Part shown: positions 1 to 4,106 of the stretch, piece after piece
How positions within the stretch are numbered: position 1 is the stretch's first letter
Layout of the letters: each line of letters starts with the position of its first letter
Origin: a virus
Taxonomy: Duplodnaviria; Heunggongvirae; Uroviricota; Caudoviricetes
Virus record (IMG/VR): IMGVR_UViG_2541047433_000013
Direction: 5' to 3' (one strand)
Length of the DNA stretch: 4,106 nucleotides
Notes under the pieces: model-generated
Database searches by the model: none
Told to the model about the DNA's origin: nothing
The model's input: only the letters and a program-made list of their open reading frames with translations
Program-made: the position numbers and the translations under genes

Positions 1-85
1 GGTCTTTCCTCGTTACCAGTGCCGTCACTATGACGGTTAAACAGATGACGATCAGGGCGATTAACATCGCCTTTTGCTGCTTCAT
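1..85 (-). CDS. hok: Hok/Gef-family type I toxin, 5' portion only (28 N-terminal codons; gene continues past the left edge)
   Basis: Reverse complement of 1..85 translates to MKQQKAMLIALIVICLTVIVTALVTRKD with ATG at 85..83. From memory this closely matches the N-terminal transmembrane region of HokD/RelF and Gef. AAGGAG Shine-Dalgarno at 100..95 sits 9 nt upstream of the ATG. Not in the ORF track because it is partial. Confidence 0.8.
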   Translation of the reverse strand, partial: MKQQKAMLIALIVICLTVIVTALVTRKD

Positions 86-158
86 AGCCTGCTTCTCCTT
101 GCCTTTCGGCACGTAAGAGGCTAACCTACATGTGTTCAGCATGGATTGAGCCTCAGAT

Positions 159-193
159 TAATGTTAAGCGTCTTGCAGGACGCGTAATGTTAA
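159..193. repeat. 9-bp direct repeat TAATGTTAA (159..167 and 185..193) flanking a 5-bp inverted repeat GCGTC/GACGC (168..172 and 179..183, loop TTGCAG)
   Basis: Read directly from the sequence. It lies in the predicted hok mRNA leader, or equally in the predicted antisense (Sok-like) region. Confidence 0.4.
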
Positions 194-260
194 CTGGGGC
201 TTTTCTCTATCTGCCGTTGGTGTTCATGCCCGAGGCAGATAGCCTCAAGCACCCGCAGCA

Positions 261-288
261 ATTCTACTTAACTATCCTTTTCCCGCAA
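261..288 (-). promoter_or_regulatory. Candidate sigma70 promoter for the hok transcript
   Basis: On the minus strand: TTGCGG (288..283), a 16-nt spacer, then TAGAAT (266..261). The implied start near 254 would place the hok ATG about 170 nt into the transcript, comparable to what I recall for plasmid R1 hok mRNA. Prediction from sequence only. Confidence 0.25.
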
Positions 289-321
289 ACCGTTTTTATC
301 CCCAGCGGCAAATCGAATACA

Positions 322-329
322 CCACCAGC
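322..329 (-). other. Chi octamer 5'-GCTGGTGG-3' (minus-strand sense)
   Basis: The plus strand reads CCACCAGC at 322..329, an exact reverse complement of Chi. It is the only copy I found in the window. Function is inferred from the motif alone. Confidence 0.5.
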
Positions 330-375
330 GCCACCGCCATCGCAATTCCTACCGTTGTGAATGCTTCAGGCCAGG

Positions 376-933
376 TCATTGATTCACCTCCTGCGGCGGT
401 TCTGGTAGCGACATCCAGTGGGTTGCTTGCCTAAGATCATTACCCGGACTAACTGCTATACCTCCGCGCCGGAACGTGCCTCCGAGATAGCGTGCGGAAT
501 ATATTAATGGCCCAGCCTCGCTATCGATATTCATCGAAATAAGCACGTTCTGGCTCTTTTCAGGCATTCGCTCAGTACAGCTTATCCAGCCATCCAGAGT
601 TATCGGAGATCTGGTTGACGTTTCCGAGATTTCCCGAAAATTGTTGGTTGACGAATTCTTATTTTCCCGAAAGTTTCCGGCCTGAAGCATGGCGACGCGG
701 CAGGCGTTCCAGCCATCAGCATATGTTTTAGTTACACCGTCGAGATGGCAGGTAAGCAAATCCATTTCATCAGGCACTACCATTGCTATCGGCTCTGCTT
801 CCAGTGATGCCAGCGCGATACGAAACACATTAGCCAGCAGGCTGTCTGAAGACTTGTTATCGTGCGCCGAGTCGCTCAGGAAGCCTGTGATGTATGATTT
901 AATCTCCGCGCGTTCTCTGGTAATAGTGCTCAT
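376..933 (-). CDS. Phage protein, 185 aa, with a C-terminal DUF551-like domain
   Basis: ORF in the track. AAGGAAA Shine-Dalgarno 7 nt upstream of ATG 933..931. The start lies 1 nt after the stop of the upstream 72-aa ORF. The C-terminal part (DGWISCTERMPE...THWMSLPEPP) resembles the DUF551 signature as I remember it; family assignment is from memory. Confidence 0.7.
   Translation of the reverse strand: MSTITRERAEIKSYITGFLSDSAHDNKSSDSLLANVFRIALASLEAEPIAMVVPDEMDLLTCHLDGVTKTYADGWNACRVAMLQAGNFRENKNSSTNNFREISETSTRSPITLDGWISCTERMPEKSQNVLISMNIDSEAGPLIYSARYLGGTFRRGGIAVSPGNDLRQATHWMSLPEPPQEVNQ
611..676 (-). repeat. Imperfect tandem duplication of a 33-bp unit inside the 185-aa gene
   Basis: Units 611..643 and 644..676 share ggttgacg and tttcccgaaa blocks, about 24 of 33 positions identical by my hand alignment. 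In the protein this is an 11-residue repeat (NFRENKNSSTN / NFREISETSTR) between the N-terminal region and the DUF551-like domain. Confidence 0.4.
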
Positions 934-934
934 A

Positions 935-1153
935 TCAGTTTTCCTTATACGGATTAATTTTATTGTGCAGTGCGCTGAATGATTCCCATGTCACATCGGT
1001 ATATAGCTCAATAACTGGTTCAAATGTCCTTCCAATTATCCAGACCAGTAATAGCGGGGATATCGGTATCATCAACACTATAAACAGAATGAAAAACAGA
1101 AACTCTGTTGTTCTGCTCTTTCGTGGGTAATTTTTTTCTAAATAATGTTTCAT
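935..1153 (-). CDS. Small single-pass membrane protein, 72 aa, function unknown
   Basis: ORF in the track with ATG at 1153..1151. It has a basic N-terminus (RKSR) followed by a hydrophobic stretch (FLFFILFIVLMIPISPLLLVWIIG). The gene and its upstream region are visibly AT-rich compared with the neighbouring genes. Confidence 0.6.
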   Translation of the reverse strand: MKHYLEKNYPRKSRTTEFLFFILFIVLMIPISPLLLVWIIGRTFEPVIELYTDVTWESFSALHNKINPYKEN

Positions 1154-1159
1154 TTCTTA

Positions 1160-1181
1160 CCGCCCTTTCGGGCGGCCTCCT
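1160..1181 (-). promoter_or_regulatory. Structured translation-initiation region: AGGAGG Shine-Dalgarno, then a 6-bp G:C stem with GAAA tetraloop, then UAAGAA-AUG
   Basis: In RNA sense: AGGAGG (1181..1176), CCGCCC-GAAA-GGGCGG (1175..1160), UAAGAA, then AUG (1153..1151). Read directly from the sequence. Confidence 0.35.
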
Positions 1182-1276
1182 GATGTTCTGAGGGTGCAGG
1201 AATCCCTCCGGTTAAGGATTTAATAAAAATCATTTCTGATTTAAATTTTCAGTGTTTAGTTGTTGGTTTATAGCCT

Positions 1277-1588
1277 TTATGCTTCGGCCTTATTTCTCAG
1301 CCATACACAAACAGGACCATCTTCGGTGTCATGTATCGAACCGATAAACCATCCCTCACCTTCTGGTCGCTCAGGTTCCCATGCTGAAATATCAGGGCCA
1401 TCTGCGTCCAGATTAAAATCATCTTCATCCATACTACGGATAGCCCACTGAAGATTATTTTTCTCCATCCAGGCGTTAAACTCTTCCGTTGAAATATATT
1501 CCCGACCATCACAGAATTTTTCATATTCAGGATGCGTCCAGCAGCCATATTCATTACGTTCCACTGGCATTTCTTTAATTACGCTCAT
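1277..1588 (-). CDS. Hypothetical phage protein, 103 aa, acidic and Trp-rich
   Basis: ORF in the track. The ATG at 1588..1586 overlaps the TGA of the upstream small ORF (ATGA). A G-rich Shine-Dalgarno (AAGGGGGG) lies immediately upstream. No family recognised. Confidence 0.7.
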   Translation of the reverse strand: MSVIKEMPVERNEYGCWTHPEYEKFCDGREYISTEEFNAWMEKNNLQWAIRSMDEDDFNLDADGPDISAWEPERPEGEGWFIGSIHDTEDGPVCVWLRNKAEA

Positions 1589-1737
1589 TTACCCCCCTTA
1601 TTTAATTTTCTACGACACTTTTTACAATCATCTGGACTTTCGAATGTATCCGGCTCACGCTCATTGCCAAAATACATCCACCCACCGCAAATACTTGTTA
1701 TTTCACCTTCAGCAAAATAATGATGTTTTTTCGCCAT
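1585..1737 (-). CDS. Small Cys/His-containing protein, about 50 aa, possible metal-binding mini-protein
   Basis: The track ORF 1585..1773 starts with GTG. I prefer the internal ATG at 1737..1735 (MAKKHHYF...), which is preceded by AAGG. The protein has HH near the N-terminus and three Cys (ICGG, DDCKKC). Its stop overlaps the next start by 4 nt. Confidence 0.45.
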   Translation of the reverse strand: MAKKHHYFAEGEITSICGGWMYFGNEREPDTFESPDDCKKCRRKLNKGGK

Positions 1738-1769
1738 AAGTGGCCTTGCCCAGCCCGGATTCGTTTTAC

Positions 1770-2126
1770 TCACTTGTTGCCTCCTTTGCGAAGCTCTGCG
1801 ACTAACTCGTCACATATGTGCGTCAAAGAGCAAAGTTTGATTGCTGGATGTTCGCGCACCATCTCCACACCCTGCGCCCGCAATTCTGCCAGAAAAGCGT
1901 AGGGGTCAGTTTTTTCACTGTGGTACATGGCATCATAGATAATCATTGCAGCGACACCTGCCTGTCCTGCATCTGTGACGGATATATGCTCAAGGGCTAC
2001 GGCCATTGCGTGTTTCAACCTCTCATTTTCCACCTCAAGCACCACACGATTAGCCTCCAGCTCTTCTATGCGTTTTTTTGCTGCTCCCAGCTCAACACGC
2101 AGCTCCTGATAGTTAATCTCGCTCAT
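1770..2126 (-). CDS. Hypothetical phage protein, 118 aa, with a probable coiled-coil N-terminus
   Basis: ORF in the track. The ATG at 2126..2124 overlaps the upstream stop (ATGA). GGGAGG lies 7 nt upstream. The N-terminal 40 residues are rich in E/L/K/R with a heptad-like pattern. Confidence 0.65.
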   Translation of the reverse strand: MSEINYQELRVELGAAKKRIEELEANRVVLEVENERLKHAMAVALEHISVTDAGQAGVAAMIIYDAMYHSEKTDPYAFLAELRAQGVEMVREHPAIKLCSLTHICDELVAELRKGGNK

Positions 2127-2347
2127 TCTCCTTCCTCCCGCACTGCTGTTTTATATGCCCGAAGCACATGCGATGTTTTTCCTGACACAGTGCTTCTCAG
2201 AAAGAAAATTCCACTGGTGTTTATTACCAGATACGGGTCAGCAAGACGCAGCATATCCAGTATGTGATTATGTTTTCTTGTTTCCAGCACCGTACTTGAA
2301 ATAAGCATATGTGACACGGGGCCGAAATCATGATATCTGATTTTCAT
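2123..2347 (-). CDS. Hypothetical phage protein, 74 aa
   Basis: ORF in the track with ATG at 2347..2345. AGGGTG Shine-Dalgarno about 6 nt upstream. It sits 21 nt downstream of the preceding gene's stop and its own stop overlaps the next start. Confidence 0.55.
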   Translation of the reverse strand: MKIRYHDFGPVSHMLISSTVLETRKHNHILDMLRLADPYLVINTSGIFFLRSTVSGKTSHVLRAYKTAVREEGE

Positions 2348-2368
2348 ATCATCACCCTGCTGTAAAAA

Positions 2369-3079
2369 TTACCCGTTATCTCCTGTCGTTATTTTCTGTA
2401 TGACATCACGATGCTTATTAATTTCCCGCAGCGCGGCGCATAAGCGCTCCCACTTCTGAACCTGACCTTTTGCCCGGCGCAGCTCGCGGTTAGCCACATG
2501 CAGCGATGGTAAAATCAGACCATCCGGATGCTTTCTGATGAACGACGACTGTGACTGCACTGTGACCGCCACACTTTCCGTTTTTATTTCTTCCTGTGTT
2601 TCCGCTTCCCGGACTGGTAACGCAACACCTGCTGGCTGAGGAAAGGCTTTACCATCCGTTTCCGTTATGGATGCGGCTTTCGGCTCTGCCGGTAAATTAT
2701 CGCCCGGTATGCAGTAACGATATTTACCGTCCTGATTCACGCGAATCAGACGCCCTTTGCTGACAGCCATCGCCAGTGATGAATTCGCCCGGCGGGAGGT
2801 AATCCCGAACATTAGCGCCAGTTCGTCAGCCGTTTGTGGGCCATGATGTTCAATCGCCTCAGTCAGCATTTGCGCTGTCACTTTCGGTACCGGTGACACT
2901 GGTTCACTTTCACCAGTCTGAGTCAGCCACCACATCGACCCCTTGTTATCCGCTTCACCACGGCGCTTCAGTTTCCACAGTTCGTTGACAGCATCTTCGC
3001 GGCTGATTCCAAGGCGCGATGCCACTACCTGTGAAGAGGCTTTTTTCAGTGCTTTCAGTGCGTCAAATACGGTTTCCAT
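2369..3079 (-). CDS. Tandem winged-helix phage protein, about 236 aa (DUF1627-like), in the position lambda ren occupies after P
   Basis: The track ORF starts with TTG at 3097. I prefer ATG at 3079..3077 (METVFDALK...), which has GGAGG 8 nt upstream. Two segments look like winged-helix HTH units ([10 protein letters not shown]...[10 protein letters not shown] and [10 protein letters not shown]...[10 protein letters not shown]). DUF1627 assignment is from memory. Confidence 0.75.
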
Positions 3080-3112
3080 TAATATTTCCTCCGACAAAAT
3101 CGTTTCTCAGAT

Positions 3113-3775
3113 TCAAATAAAACCAGCTGCCTTCCGGCGTTCGTATTCCTGTTTCAGCCGTTCAATTGGCGTTGGCCCTTGCGGGTGTTTCGCCCCTTCC
3201 AGTTGTCGTCGCACTGGCGGAACACTCATCCCGTTACCAACATGCTTTGCCCATTTCGTCAGTTGCCGTTCCGCAAGTCGTTTTAACTCACCTTGCGTCA
3301 TCTGGCGCTCAATCCCTCTGGTACGCATTTCGAGGCAGATGTGGTACAGCACAGGCTGTGGCCACGGGTATTTATCACTCCCGTCGTATCGCCAGGATTC
3401 ATTGCGCCAGCGCCGGTACTCTTCCATCACGGCATCCACCGTAAGACCAAATGGATTTGCCCCACTCTCCGAAATCAGCGCAACAAACTCAGCCAGGTCC
3501 GGGGGCCACGTTTCACCCGCCCGGCAGCGGTCCATGCACTGACGGCACACCAGACGGATTTGCTGTTCAGTCATCGCACCAATCTGGGCAATCCAGAGCT
3601 TCGAAGGTGCGGCCCCGTTCTTCTGAGTCCAGCGGTTCGAATACACCTCCCCCATGAGCTCCCACAGCTTCCAGGCCGTTTCCGTTGCTGATAAATCCGT
3701 TGTCACGTTCCCACTGTTCGCGTGCAGCCCGGATTTCCTGAACTGCCCGTGATGCCGTGCCACCTGATGCTGCAT
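3113..3775 (-). CDS. Lambda-P-like replication protein (DnaB helicase loader)
   Basis: ORF in the track. The C-terminal half aligns by eye with lambda P as I recall it (conserved YPW, ELRR/ELKR and PVxxQL blocks; MTEQQ versus TMEQV). AAGGGGGG Shine-Dalgarno 5 nt upstream of ATG 3775..3773. Alternative starts are ATG 3655 and ATG 3574. Confidence 0.8.
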   Translation of the reverse strand: MQHQVARHHGQFRKSGLHANSGNVTTDLSATETAWKLWELMGEVYSNRWTQKNGAAPSKLWIAQIGAMTEQQIRLVCRQCMDRCRAGETWPPDLAEFVALISESGANPFGLTVDAVMEEYRRWRNESWRYDGSDKYPWPQPVLYHICLEMRTRGIERQMTQGELKRLAERQLTKWAKHVGNGMSVPPVRRQLEGAKHPQGPTPIERLKQEYERRKAAGFI

Positions 3776-4106
3776 GGCTTCCCCCCTTGCTGACTGGTTT
3801 TACCTGTGCCCTGACGTGCTGCACGTGGCGGGCAAATTTCTGCTCCCACTGAACCTGCGTGAAAACCTTCCCCTCCGCCATCCAGTAATCCCGGAATGCG
3901 GCAAGCTCAGCAGGTGTAAATTCCGGCTCAGGCAGAGCCATACCCCACACTGCTGCCCGTTGTCGAAAATCCGGCGACGGCTGCCAGACAGTAGTCATCG
4001 AAAATTTCCCGATCGGTTCGCTCAGGCCGTCCAGGTATTCAGGTTCGGCTGTCTGCAACGGCGCACCATTCGACTCACTGGTCGGAATACTCTCGCGCGC
4101 GTTATG
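3567..4106 (-). CDS. Replication initiator with a DnaT-like domain, 3' portion (reading frame open to the right edge, so the N-terminus is outside the window)
   Basis: The track ORF 3567..4058 begins at a TTG, but the frame stays open through 4106. The segment GKFSMTTVWQPSPDF...YWMAEGKVFTQVQWEQKFARHV resembles the C-terminal domain of E. coli primosomal protein DnaT (GKFAMYPDWQPDADF...[22 protein letters not shown]), recalled from memory. Confidence 0.8.
   Translation of the reverse strand, partial: HNARESIPTSESNGAPLQTAEPEYLDGLSEPIGKFSMTTVWQPSPDFRQRAAVWGMALPEPEFTPAELAAFRDYWMAEGKVFTQVQWEQKFARHVQHVRAQVKPVSKGGSHAASGGTASRAVQEIRAAREQWERDNGFISNGNGLEAVGAHGGGVFEPLDSEERGRTFEALDCPDWCDD

What the first reader, a model, noticed from the sequence alone, without database searches (positions are those of the whole stretch)
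1..300. hok-type type I toxin locus at the left edge, with a roughly 170-nt structured leader and a predicted antisense partner
The Hok N-terminus is unambiguous in the sequence. Known hok loci are controlled by a long, folded mRNA leader, an overlapping mok frame and a short antisense Sok RNA made from the opposite strand, so the plus strand between about 130 and 260 should encode the Sok-like RNA. The leader contains an inverted repeat GAGGC-AGATA-GCCTC (232..246). There is also an in-frame ATG at 142..140 with no stop before the hok ATG, which could be a mok-like upstream start. I found no start codon in the other open frame across hok. A phage-borne hok locus may stabilise the prophage or exclude other phages, as has been reported for hok/sok and T4.
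Basis: partly seen in the sequence, partly recalled or inferred. Interest (0 to 1): 0.5.

Follow-up and report, generated by a model that had tools for sequence, protein, structure and literature searches.

The report
Known hokW/sokW toxin-antitoxin locus copy

Summary
The observation and the interpretation both hold. On the minus strand, 85..1 encodes the first 28 residues of a Hok/Gef toxin (Pfam PF01848, 32 bits). Positions 254..80 match Rfam RF01794 at 113.5 bits (threshold 59). The ATG at 142..140 is the in-frame mok start. The inverted repeat at 232..246 is the core of the conserved 5' metastable hairpin.

Window 1..300 differs at only 2 bases from the annotated hokW/mokW/sokW locus of phage 933W. 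That annotation puts SokW at window 134..204 (+). Every probe and wild-type primer segment checked from the experimental study of this locus (Takada 2021) that lies inside the window matches it exactly.

E. coli genomes identical to the window over its first 1000 bases show an intact 51-aa Hok, identical to HokW. They also show a 3' element that pairs with the mRNA 5' end, with compensatory changes across 16 homologues.

One caveat: the Rfam 'sok' model describes the hok-sense leader, not Sok itself, so its hit falls on the minus strand.

This copy sits between the replication genes and Q of a Rac-like lambdoid prophage. About 87% of complete E. coli genomes carry a related locus. The locus is already known, and interest is low.

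The parts
1..85 (-). hok toxin gene, first 28 codons (ATG 85..83); cut by the window edge, not by mutation
   Evidence: Translation. Pfam PF01848 32.3 bits. Identical to hokW of 933W over these bases. The full 51-aa ORF is present in genomes identical to window 1..1000.
86..142 (-). mok N-terminal extension: ATG 142..140, 19 codons, in frame with hok
   Evidence: Coincides with the annotated mokW start of AF125520. Same in-frame arrangement as mokC/hokC of K-12.
95..100 (-). hok Shine-Dalgarno AAGGAG, 9 nt before the hok ATG
   Evidence: Nearly invariant in alignment A1.
151..154 (-). mok Shine-Dalgarno GAGG, 8 nt before the mok ATG, inside the Sok target
   Evidence: Sequence. Invariant in A1. 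Paired with GCCCC (200..196, anti-SD/ucb) in the predicted folds.
86..254 (-). hok mRNA 5' leader, 169 nt; the 5' end is placed at G254
   Evidence: RF01794 full-length match 254..80, 113.5 bits. A -10-like hexamer sits at the same distance upstream of the model start in 16 of 17 loci checked, whose upstream sequences are mostly unrelated.
243..254 (-). tac element GGGUGCUUGAGG at the mRNA 5' end; pairs with the 3' fbi element that lies outside the window
   Evidence: MFE of the 393-nt mRNA taken from an identical genome. Duplex found in 17 loci. Covariation: pair 4:413 occurs as UA 9 / CG 6.
228..250 (-).
   Evidence: Folds. Covariation.
150..201 (-). Sok-target hairpin of the leader (mRNA nt 54-105), which sequesters the mok SD
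   Evidence: Helix 4 has 6 pairs with changes on both sides. It has no G.U among 208 standard pairs, against 165 of 1487 in the rest of the mRNA.
261..288 (-). hok promoter by position: -35 TTGCGG 288..283, 16-nt spacer, -10 TAGAAT 266..261, start 7 nt downstream
   Evidence: Coordinates. -10 position conserved in homologues. Below the threshold of the consensus scan. Inferred, not shown.
134..204 (+). Sok antisense RNA, 71 nt: 14-nt single-stranded 5' tail, long hairpin 148..202, 3' UUUU
   Evidence: sokW misc_RNA of AF125520 maps to these bases. Fold -30 kcal/mol, z -5.0. The Northern probe YO-592 for sokW matches 134..163 exactly.
99..127 (+). sok promoter: -35 TTGCCT 99..104 (overlaps the hok SD), 17-nt spacer, -10 TAACCT 122..127
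   Evidence: The promoter-less mutant of Takada 2021 (primer YO-421) replaces exactly 122..128 and abolishes antitoxin activity. Below the threshold of the consensus scan.

Best explanation
Window 1..288 is the promoter-proximal two thirds of a hokW-mokW-sokW type I toxin-antitoxin module. It is a second, near-identical copy of the one in Stx phages 933W/Sp5. Here it lies in the early-right (nin) region of a Rac-like lambdoid prophage.

The mechanism is that of the hok/sok family.

- A promoter at 288..261 makes a stable hok mRNA of about 390 nt starting at G254.
- While the RNA is being made, its 5' end is held in a local hairpin (250..228).
- In the finished RNA the 5' end (tac, 254..243) pairs with a 3' element (fbi) beyond the window edge. 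The mok ribosome-binding site (154..151) is buried by GCCCC (200..196). The RNA is therefore neither translated nor bound by Sok.
- Slow 3' trimming removes fbi and refolds the leader. This exposes the mok start, and translation of mok drives translation of the in-frame hok.
- The short-lived 71-nt Sok RNA (134..204, plus strand, own promoter 99..127) pairs across the mok SD and start codon. It blocks translation and marks the duplex for RNase III.
- When Sok stops being made, Hok (51 aa) enters the inner membrane and damages the cell.

Shown here: identity, all sequence elements, the folds and their covariation.

Shown by others for the 933W/Sp5 allele: toxicity, antitoxin activity of the plus-strand RNA, partial RNase III/Hfq dependence, loss of Sok and appearance of HokW on induction, and a two-fold gain in phage release.

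Inferred by family analogy: 3' processing, refolding and mok-hok coupling in this allele.
For: - Sequence identity: 298 of 300 bases match the annotated 933W locus. The differences are at 177 (Sok hairpin loop) and 274 (hok promoter spacer).
- Family matches: RF01794 at 113.5 bits on 254..80. PF01848 on the fragment, and at 81 bits on the full ORF from identical genomes.
- Left extension: genomes 100% identical to window 1..1000 carry an intact hok whose product is identical to HokW.
- Full-length fold: the full mRNA folds at -162.6 kcal/mol, z -6.3, with nt 1-12 paired to CCUCAACGCACCC at the 3' end.
- tac-fbi pairing: the same duplex is found in 17 loci from Escherichia, Kluyvera, Citrobacter, Pantoea and Photorhabdus, with compensatory changes.
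- Metastable hairpin: it covaries across homologues.
- Sok: it folds as a 5' tail plus hairpin plus U-run, z -5. The Sok-complementary hairpin avoids G.U pairs entirely (0/208 against 165/1487), as expected if it must fold on both strands.
- Experiments on the allele: PMC8621323. Its probes and the wild-type parts of its primers that fall inside the window match it exactly.
- Family mechanism: PMC9841398.
Against: - The hok 3' half, its stop codon and the fbi element lie outside the window, so the intactness of this very copy rests on other genomes that are identical over the overlap.
- No complete E. coli genome holds the whole 4106-nt window in one piece.
- The simple sigma-70 and terminator scans found nothing in 1..450. 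Both promoters are weak matches to consensus (8/12 and 7/12 by my count).
- The predicted fold of the 3'-trimmed mRNA did not show the expected tac/ucb 'open' stem. It kept the mok SD sequestered.
- No expression data exist for this copy.
Confidence: 0.93

Rival explanations
1. The locus is a decayed, non-functional hok remnant, like several chromosomal hok loci of E. coli K-12 that are inactivated by IS elements or have lost the leader and sok.
For: - The window shows only 28 codons of hok.
- Some related copies do lack the leader: L008, L009 and L028 gave no RF01794 hit.
- hokC of K-12 has IS186 20 bp downstream of its stop codon.
- Some phage records label the gene 'RelF inactive antibacterial toxin protein'.
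Against: - Every regulatory element inside the window is intact and identical to the functional hokW-sokW allele, apart from one loop base and one promoter-spacer base.
- Two genomes read through that are identical to the window over the locus (L002, L052) have the full 51-aa ORF, identical to HokW, plus the 3' hairpin and fbi.
- 526 records carry the whole 441-nt locus at 99% identity or more.
Confidence: 0.04
2. The antitoxin RNA is the ~175-nt minus-strand RNA that Rfam calls 'sok' (254..80), and nothing functional is made from the plus strand.
For: The only Rfam hit is on the minus strand, and the family is typed 'Gene; antitoxin'.
Against: - The matched segment ends in the hok SD and AUG, so it is the toxin mRNA leader (alignment).
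- In K-12 the same model hits the hokC/mokC strand (402-554, minus), while the annotated sokC is on the other strand (453-511, plus).
- The same is true for sokW in 933W.
- The published sokW Northern probe has the hok-sense sequence, so it detects a plus-strand RNA. Mutating the plus-strand -10 abolished protection.
Confidence: 0.01
3. The molecular device is the same, but its biological role in this prophage is addiction (killing cells that lose the prophage) or exclusion of other phages, rather than help with lysis.
For: - hok/sok of plasmid R1 is a post-segregational killer (established knowledge) and was reported to reduce T4 plating by 42% (cited in PMC8621323).
- The 933W record annotates the genes as 'prophage maintenance'.
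Against: - The only experiment on this allele found no growth effect of deleting it. It found earlier growth arrest and twice as many released phages when the locus was present.
- Genomes carry several near-identical copies: a median of 2 places and up to 10-13. Sok from another copy could therefore protect a cell that loses one prophage (inference).
Confidence: 0.3

Closest known systems
hokW-mokW-sokW of Stx2 phage 933W / Sakai prophage Sp5 (AF125520; Takada et al. 2021, PMC8621323)
   Same: 298 of 300 bases are identical over window 1..300, and 436 of 439 over the whole locus in identical genomes. The Hok product is identical. The mok start, Sok coordinates, and sok -10/-35 sequences are the same; the hok -35/-10 hexamers are unchanged, with one base differing in the spacer.
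   Different: - Three point differences: the Sok hairpin loop (window 177), the hok promoter spacer (274) and the 3' UTR hairpin.
- Different genomic setting. In 933W the locus lies near attR, downstream of L0142-L0139. Here it lies between the replication genes and Q, in the early-right operon of a Rac-like prophage.
- The gene upstream diverges beyond window ~394.
hok/mok/sok of plasmid R1 (founding member of the family)
   Same: Same parts list and regulatory logic: tac/fbi 5'-3' pairing, metastable 5' hairpin, mok SD sequestered by an anti-SD, cis-antisense Sok over the mok start, and RNase III (PMC9841398; PMC8621323).
   Different: - HokW is only 44% identical to R1 Hok (PMC8621323).
- At the DNA level only a ~47-nt block (window 81..127: hok start, SD, sok promoter) is recognisably shared with IncF-type plasmid hok loci.
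- Here mok is in frame with hok. In R1 it is out of frame (from my memory of the R1 sequence, not tested here).
- The setting is a plasmid rather than a prophage.
Chromosomal hokC(gef)/mokC/sokC of E. coli K-12
   Same: In-frame mok, the same RF01794 leader (118 bits), and sokC starting 8 nt inside mokC, exactly as Sok starts at 134 relative to the mok ATG at 142 here. Hok is about 80% identical (L016).
   Different: - The hokC leader lacks the ~18-nt tip of the Sok hairpin (alignment).
- The K-12 copy has IS186 20 bp downstream of the hokC stop and is regarded as inactive (established knowledge).
- It is not phage-borne.
hokD (relF) type loci of Qin-like prophages and phage-plasmids
   Same: The closest chromosomal and plasmid relatives at 87-94% DNA identity are labelled hokD by RefSeq. 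They are also prophage-borne.
   Different: Some hokD-type copies have no RF01794 leader at all (L008, L009). The window's copy has the complete leader and sok.

Membership tests
hok/sok type I toxin-antitoxin family | Small hydrophobic Hok/Gef toxin ORF (Pfam PF01848) | tested here: met
   The 28-aa fragment in the window scores 32.3 bits (cut-off 22). The full 51-aa ORF from genomes identical over the overlap scores 81.1 bits.
hok/sok type I toxin-antitoxin family | Conserved structured 5' leader of about 150-175 nt upstream of hok (Rfam RF01794) | tested here: met
   Window 254..80 (-) scores 113.5 bits against a gathering score of 59, full model length.
hok/sok type I toxin-antitoxin family | mok reading frame starting upstream of hok and overlapping it, with its SD inside the antisense target | tested here: met
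   ATG 142..140 is in frame with no stop. GAGG lies at 154..151. Both fall inside 134..204. Equals the annotated mokW. Translational coupling itself was not tested.
hok/sok type I toxin-antitoxin family | Short cis-encoded antisense RNA (Sok) with its own promoter, covering the mok start region | tested here: met
   The sequence is identical, except for one loop base, to sokW. sokW RNA was detected by Northern blot with a probe that matches the window exactly, and its -10 (window 122..127) was shown to be needed. The fold is a 5' tail plus hairpin plus U-run. The hairpin has no G.U pairs. Transcription of this copy was not observed.
hok/sok type I toxin-antitoxin family | Long-range pairing of the mRNA 5' end (tac) with a 3' element (fbi) | tested here: met
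   The 3' partner is outside the window. It was tested on L002, which is identical over window 1..1000: the MFE pairs nt 1-12 with CCUCAACGCACCC, z -6.3. The duplex is conserved in 17 loci with compensatory changes.
hok/sok type I toxin-antitoxin family | Metastable 5' hairpin in which tac pairs with the segment immediately downstream | tested here: met
   Window 250..228 forms 9 bp at -15 kcal/mol. 95.8% of cells are paired and 2 pairs change on both sides in 16 homologues, against 25-52% paired when the partner is slid.
hok/sok type I toxin-antitoxin family | 3' processing followed by refolding to an open tac/ucb form that is translatable and Sok-accessible | tested here: inconclusive
   The MFE of the mRNA with fbi removed keeps the local 5' hairpin and the sequestered mok SD. 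A tac/ucb pairing (GGG-GCUU with AAGC-CCC) can be drawn by eye but is not predicted. Processing cannot be tested with these tools.
hok/sok type I toxin-antitoxin family | Toxin kills or arrests cells, and the antisense RNA neutralises it | not testable with these tools
   Shown for the 933W/Sp5 allele, which encodes the identical Hok protein (PMC8621323).

The most novel reading that the evidence does not exclude
The orientation of the locus may be its trigger. In every lambdoid setting examined, hok points the same way as antiterminated early transcription.

- Here, and in three other prophage or phage backgrounds (O157:H7 strain PA20, PPompW, vB_EcoS-666R9), it lies inside the pR operon between the replication genes and Q.
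- In 933W/Sp5 it lies beyond attR. After excision and circularisation, pL-int transcription would run across attP into it, as lambda pL runs into the b region.

Read-through polymerases would then meet the sok promoter head-on and shut it off. They would also make 5'-extended hok RNAs. This could explain the unexplained, RecA- and induction-dependent disappearance of sokW RNA and appearance of HokW reported in 2021.

This rests on gene order only. Nothing here tests it.
Probability: 0.2. Interest if true: 0.4.

Novelty: already known. Interest (0 to 1): 0.08.

Why it matters
It matters little as a discovery. The locus is annotated in GenBank, modelled in Rfam and Pfam, characterised experimentally, and related copies are present in about 87% of complete E. 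coli genomes.

Three practical points follow.

- Rfam-based annotation will place 'sok' on the wrong strand and make it about 2.5 times too long.
- EHEC genomes carry several near-identical hokW-sokW copies in different prophages. Single-copy deletion experiments may therefore be buffered by Sok from other copies.
- The conserved co-orientation with early phage transcription gives a testable idea for how induction switches the toxin on.

Tried and rejected
- **Consensus promoter/terminator scan of 1..450.** It found nothing. Both promoters are sub-threshold matches, and the Sok terminator has only four U's. I rely instead on homology, position-conserved -10 boxes and the published promoter mutant.
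- **Other Rfam hits at E up to 1.** ceN48 snoRNA (23.9 bits against 70) and G-CSF SLDE (21.2 against 45) are far below gathering score and biologically implausible. I rejected them as noise. No plus-strand Rfam hit exists, which reflects model orientation and is not evidence of absence.
- **Search for the exact source of the whole window.** Among complete E. coli genomes and phages, the best hit is 80% coverage at 97.4%, with no full-length match. The left flank therefore had to be taken from genomes identical over only the first 1000 bases.
- **Search for the R1-type locus by DNA similarity in plasmids.** Only a ~47-nt block aligns. I did not fetch the R1 sequence, so the comparison with R1 rests on the literature and my memory.
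- **Fold of the 3'-truncated mRNA, to see the open tac/ucb form.** The form was not predicted.
- **Plus-strand ORF 130..360 (76 aa).** It overlaps Sok. I did not test it; I set it aside because it lies antisense to the conserved hok leader and promoter region.
- **Column-wise counting of the distal half of tac-fbi.** A one-base bulge shifts the register between sequence groups in the MAFFT alignment. The per-sequence duplex calculation is therefore the better evidence for pairs 7-12.

Full report
**What is in the sequence**

The minus strand of window 85..1 reads MKQQKAMLIALIVICLTVIVTALVTRKD and continues past the window edge. This fragment alone passes Pfam's threshold for the Hok/Gef family (PF01848, 32.3 bits against 22, E 7.7e-8).

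Upstream of it, Rfam family RF01794 matches window 254..80 on the minus strand over its full length. The score is 113.5 bits against a gathering score of 59, E 3e-26. The ATG at 142..140 is in frame with hok, 19 codons upstream, with no intervening stop. The inverted repeat GAGGC-AGATA-GCCTC is at 232..246.

**Identity**

A megablast of window 1..420 finds 96 phage records. The best are Stx-converting phages, including 933W, whose record annotates hokW, mokW and a sokW antisense RNA under the match. Transferred to window coordinates, these features are:

- hokW ATG at 85 (minus)
- mokW ATG at 142 (minus, same stop as hokW, hence in frame)
- sokW at 134..204 (plus)

Base by base, window 1..300 differs from 933W at two positions only. 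Position 177 is A instead of C, in the loop of the Sok hairpin. Position 274 is A instead of C, in the spacer of the hok promoter. Beyond about 394 the two sequences diverge because the upstream gene is different.

**Published experiments on this allele**

Takada et al. 2021 (PMC8621323) studied hokW-sokW of Sakai prophage Sp5. They reported the following:

- HokW is toxic.
- The RNA made from the sok promoter neutralises it.
- Mutating the sok -10 removes protection.
- RNase III and Hfq contribute partly.
- Mitomycin C makes sokW RNA vanish and HokW appear in the inner membrane, in a RecA-dependent way.
- Deleting the locus halves phage release.

Their oligonucleotides are listed in the paper. 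Every probe and wild-type primer segment I checked that lies inside the window matches it exactly. This includes the sokW probe (window 163..134, hok-sense, so it detects a plus-strand RNA) and the hokW probe (97..126).

Their mutagenic primer YO-421 differs from the window only at 122..128. This identifies TAACCT (122..127) as the sok -10 (reading).

**Anatomy in window coordinates**

hok side (minus strand):

- -35 TTGCGG at 288..283, 16-nt spacer, -10 TAGAAT at 266..261
- mRNA 5' end at G254
- tac at 254..243
- 5' hairpin at 250..228
- anti-SD GCCCC at 200..196
- mok SD GAGG at 154..151, mok ATG at 142
- hok SD AAGGAG at 100..95, hok ATG at 85

sok side (plus strand):

- -35 TTGCCT at 99..104 (overlapping the hok SD), 17-nt spacer, -10 TAACCT at 122..127
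- Sok RNA at 134..204

Neither promoter reaches the threshold of the consensus scan. A TAnnnT-type hexamer sits 6 nt upstream of the Rfam model start in 16 of 17 loci checked (the window plus 16 homologues). Most of their upstream sequences are unrelated. The exception has GAAAAT. This supports the placement of the hok promoter and start.

**Structure**

Sok (134..204) folds into a 14-nt free 5' tail, a long hairpin and a UUUU end, at -30 kcal/mol with z -5.0.

The 3' half of the mRNA is outside the window. I took it from E. coli O157:H7 PV15-279, which is 100% identical to window 1..1000. The 393-nt RNA folds at -162.6 kcal/mol (z -6.3). Its nt 1-12 (GGGUGCUUGAGG) pair with CCUCAA-C-GCACCC near the 3' end.

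**Comparative support**

A scan of one genome per species returned 47 loci encoding Hok relatives. Of the 20 given to Rfam, 17 had RF01794 immediately upstream of hok on the hok strand.

- **tac-fbi duplex.** In 17 loci the first 13-14 nt find a complementary site about 45-65 nt after the hok stop, at -18 to -26 kcal/mol. Changes are matched on both sides, for example GGGUGC/GCACCC in Escherichia against GGGCGC/GCGCCC in Photorhabdus, and GAGG/CCUC against GAGA/UCUC.
- **Whole-mRNA fold.** On a 16-sequence alignment, the fold has 84.5% of cells paired, against about 41% when partners are slid. Thirty pairs change on both sides, and no shuffle reaches that.
- **Metastable hairpin.** It has 95.8% of cells paired, and two pairs change on both sides.
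- **Caveat.** The sequences are related and the structure was derived from one of them, so these numbers overstate independence. The double-sided changes are the robust part.

**A signature of the antisense RNA**

The hairpin that is complementary to Sok has six pairs with changes on both sides. It has no G.U pair at all among 208 standard pairs, while the rest of the mRNA has 165 among 1487. A G.U pair on one strand is a C-A mismatch on the other. This pattern is therefore what a hairpin that must fold on both strands would show. It is comparative evidence, independent of the annotation, for a structured plus-strand RNA. The Fisher p-value of 3e-10 is inflated by relatedness.

**The Rfam strand caveat**

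RF01794 is named 'sok antitoxin', yet it hits the hok strand and ends in the hok SD and AUG. In K-12 it hits the hokC/mokC strand (L003 402-554, minus), while the annotated sokC lies at 453-511 on the plus strand. The same holds for sokW in 933W. The model therefore describes the toxin mRNA leader that contains the Sok target. A minus-strand hit supports the locus. It does not place Sok on the minus strand.

**Is the locus intact?**

Within the window nothing is broken. In two genomes identical over the overlap (L002, L052), hok is a complete 51-aa ORF identical to HokW, followed by the 3' hairpin and fbi. The whole 441-nt locus occurs at 99% identity or more in 526 records. Related copies occur in 4716 of 5426 complete E. 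coli genomes, with a median of two places per genome.

The actual left flank of this window is not known. No complete genome contains the whole window in one piece.

**Mechanism**

The family mechanism is summarised in PMC9841398.

- The nascent RNA is held in a metastable 5' hairpin.
- The full-length RNA is locked by tac/fbi, with the mok SD sequestered by ucb.
- 3' trimming triggers refolding to tac/ucb, which exposes the mok SD and the Sok target.
- Sok binding leads to RNase III cleavage.

Every sequence element needed for the first, second and fourth steps is present and covaries here.

The refolding step is not reproduced by MFE prediction of the trimmed RNA, so it remains inferred by analogy. 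Coupling of hok translation to mok is also inferred.

**Setting**

The other genes in the window are all on the minus strand. They are a DnaT-like replication protein, a lambda P-like protein, DUF1627, an Ead/Ea22-like protein, DUF4014 and DUF551.

In the closest complete genome the order on one strand is Cro-like, YdaT, DnaT-like, P..., DUF551, hok, YgiW-like, DUF968, RusA, DUF1133, tRNAs. That is the early-right operon of a Rac-like lambdoid prophage. The same placement between the replication genes and Q is seen in PPompW phages and in vB_EcoS-666R9, where a few opposite-strand genes intervene.

In 933W the record is in prophage order, with attL and int at the left end and the pL operon on the minus strand. 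hokW lies on the minus strand near the right end. After circularisation, pL transcription through int would continue into it. Takada et al. state that the step of induction which removes sokW RNA is unknown.

The co-orientation suggests read-through transcription colliding with the sok promoter. This is an untested inference, which I give a probability of about 0.2.

**Verdict**

The locus is a known, annotated and experimentally characterised module and is extremely common in E. coli. Novelty: already known. Interest: low.

Noticed in passing
window 299..379 (-): A 27-codon hydrophobic ORF (MTWPEAFTTVGIAMAVALVVYSICRWG). Its ATG overlaps the stop of the DUF551 gene (ATGA), and its stop codon lies 8 nt before the hok -35. 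It is kept in 933W at the same length with 7 amino-acid changes. It has no Pfam hit and is not annotated in the RefSeq or 933W records seen. It could be a small membrane peptide, or just an open frame.
   Followed up: partly
window 80..254 (-); L003 402..554; L001 1580..1754: Rfam RF01794, named 'sok antitoxin', is modelled on the hok-sense strand and ends at the hok AUG. Annotation pipelines that use it will place 'sok' on the wrong strand and at 150-175 nt instead of about 55-71 nt.
   Followed up: yes
window 150..201 (alignment A1 columns 55-107): The Sok-complementary hairpin has no G.U pairs among 208 standard pairs in 16 homologues, against 11% elsewhere in the hok mRNA. This fits selection for folding on both strands.
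   Followed up: yes
window 3113..3775 (-) and 3567..4058 (-): The longest ATG frame of the lambda P-like gene (Pfam PF06992) overlaps the DnaT-like gene (PF17948) by 209 nt. RefSeq calls a 153-aa product for the homologous gene in strain PA20, so the real start is probably an internal ATG near the end of the upstream gene.
   Followed up: partly
window 1153..1181 (-): An AGGAGG motif is followed by a GC-rich hairpin (GCCGCCC-GAAA-GGGCGG) and then AAGAA-ATG of the DUF4014 gene. The Shine-Dalgarno-like motif is about 22 nt from the start codon unless the hairpin forms and brings them closer.
   Followed up: no
window 1..4106: The first 1000 bases are 100% identical to many O157:H7 chromosomes. 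The window as a whole is not found in one piece in any complete E. coli genome or phage record (best 80% coverage at 97.4%). The middle of the window (the 20% not covered; exact span not mapped) is therefore a different mosaic module.
   Followed up: partly
L030 456..603 and 1085..1233; Photorhabdus loci L027-L043: Photorhabdus genomes carry many hok loci (up to four loci from a single assembly in this sample), with a shorter leader lacking the tip of the Sok hairpin. One locus shows two RF01794 leaders about 630 nt apart, which suggests tandem hok modules.
   Followed up: no
L015, L023 (related-loci output): Near-identical E. coli-type hok fragments appear on very short contigs (275 and 431 nt) of Acinetobacter idrijaensis and Xanthomonas pisi assemblies. 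An 'Actinobacillus phage' record also carries an E. coli-like Rac region. These look like contamination or mislabelled hosts rather than real distribution.
   Followed up: no
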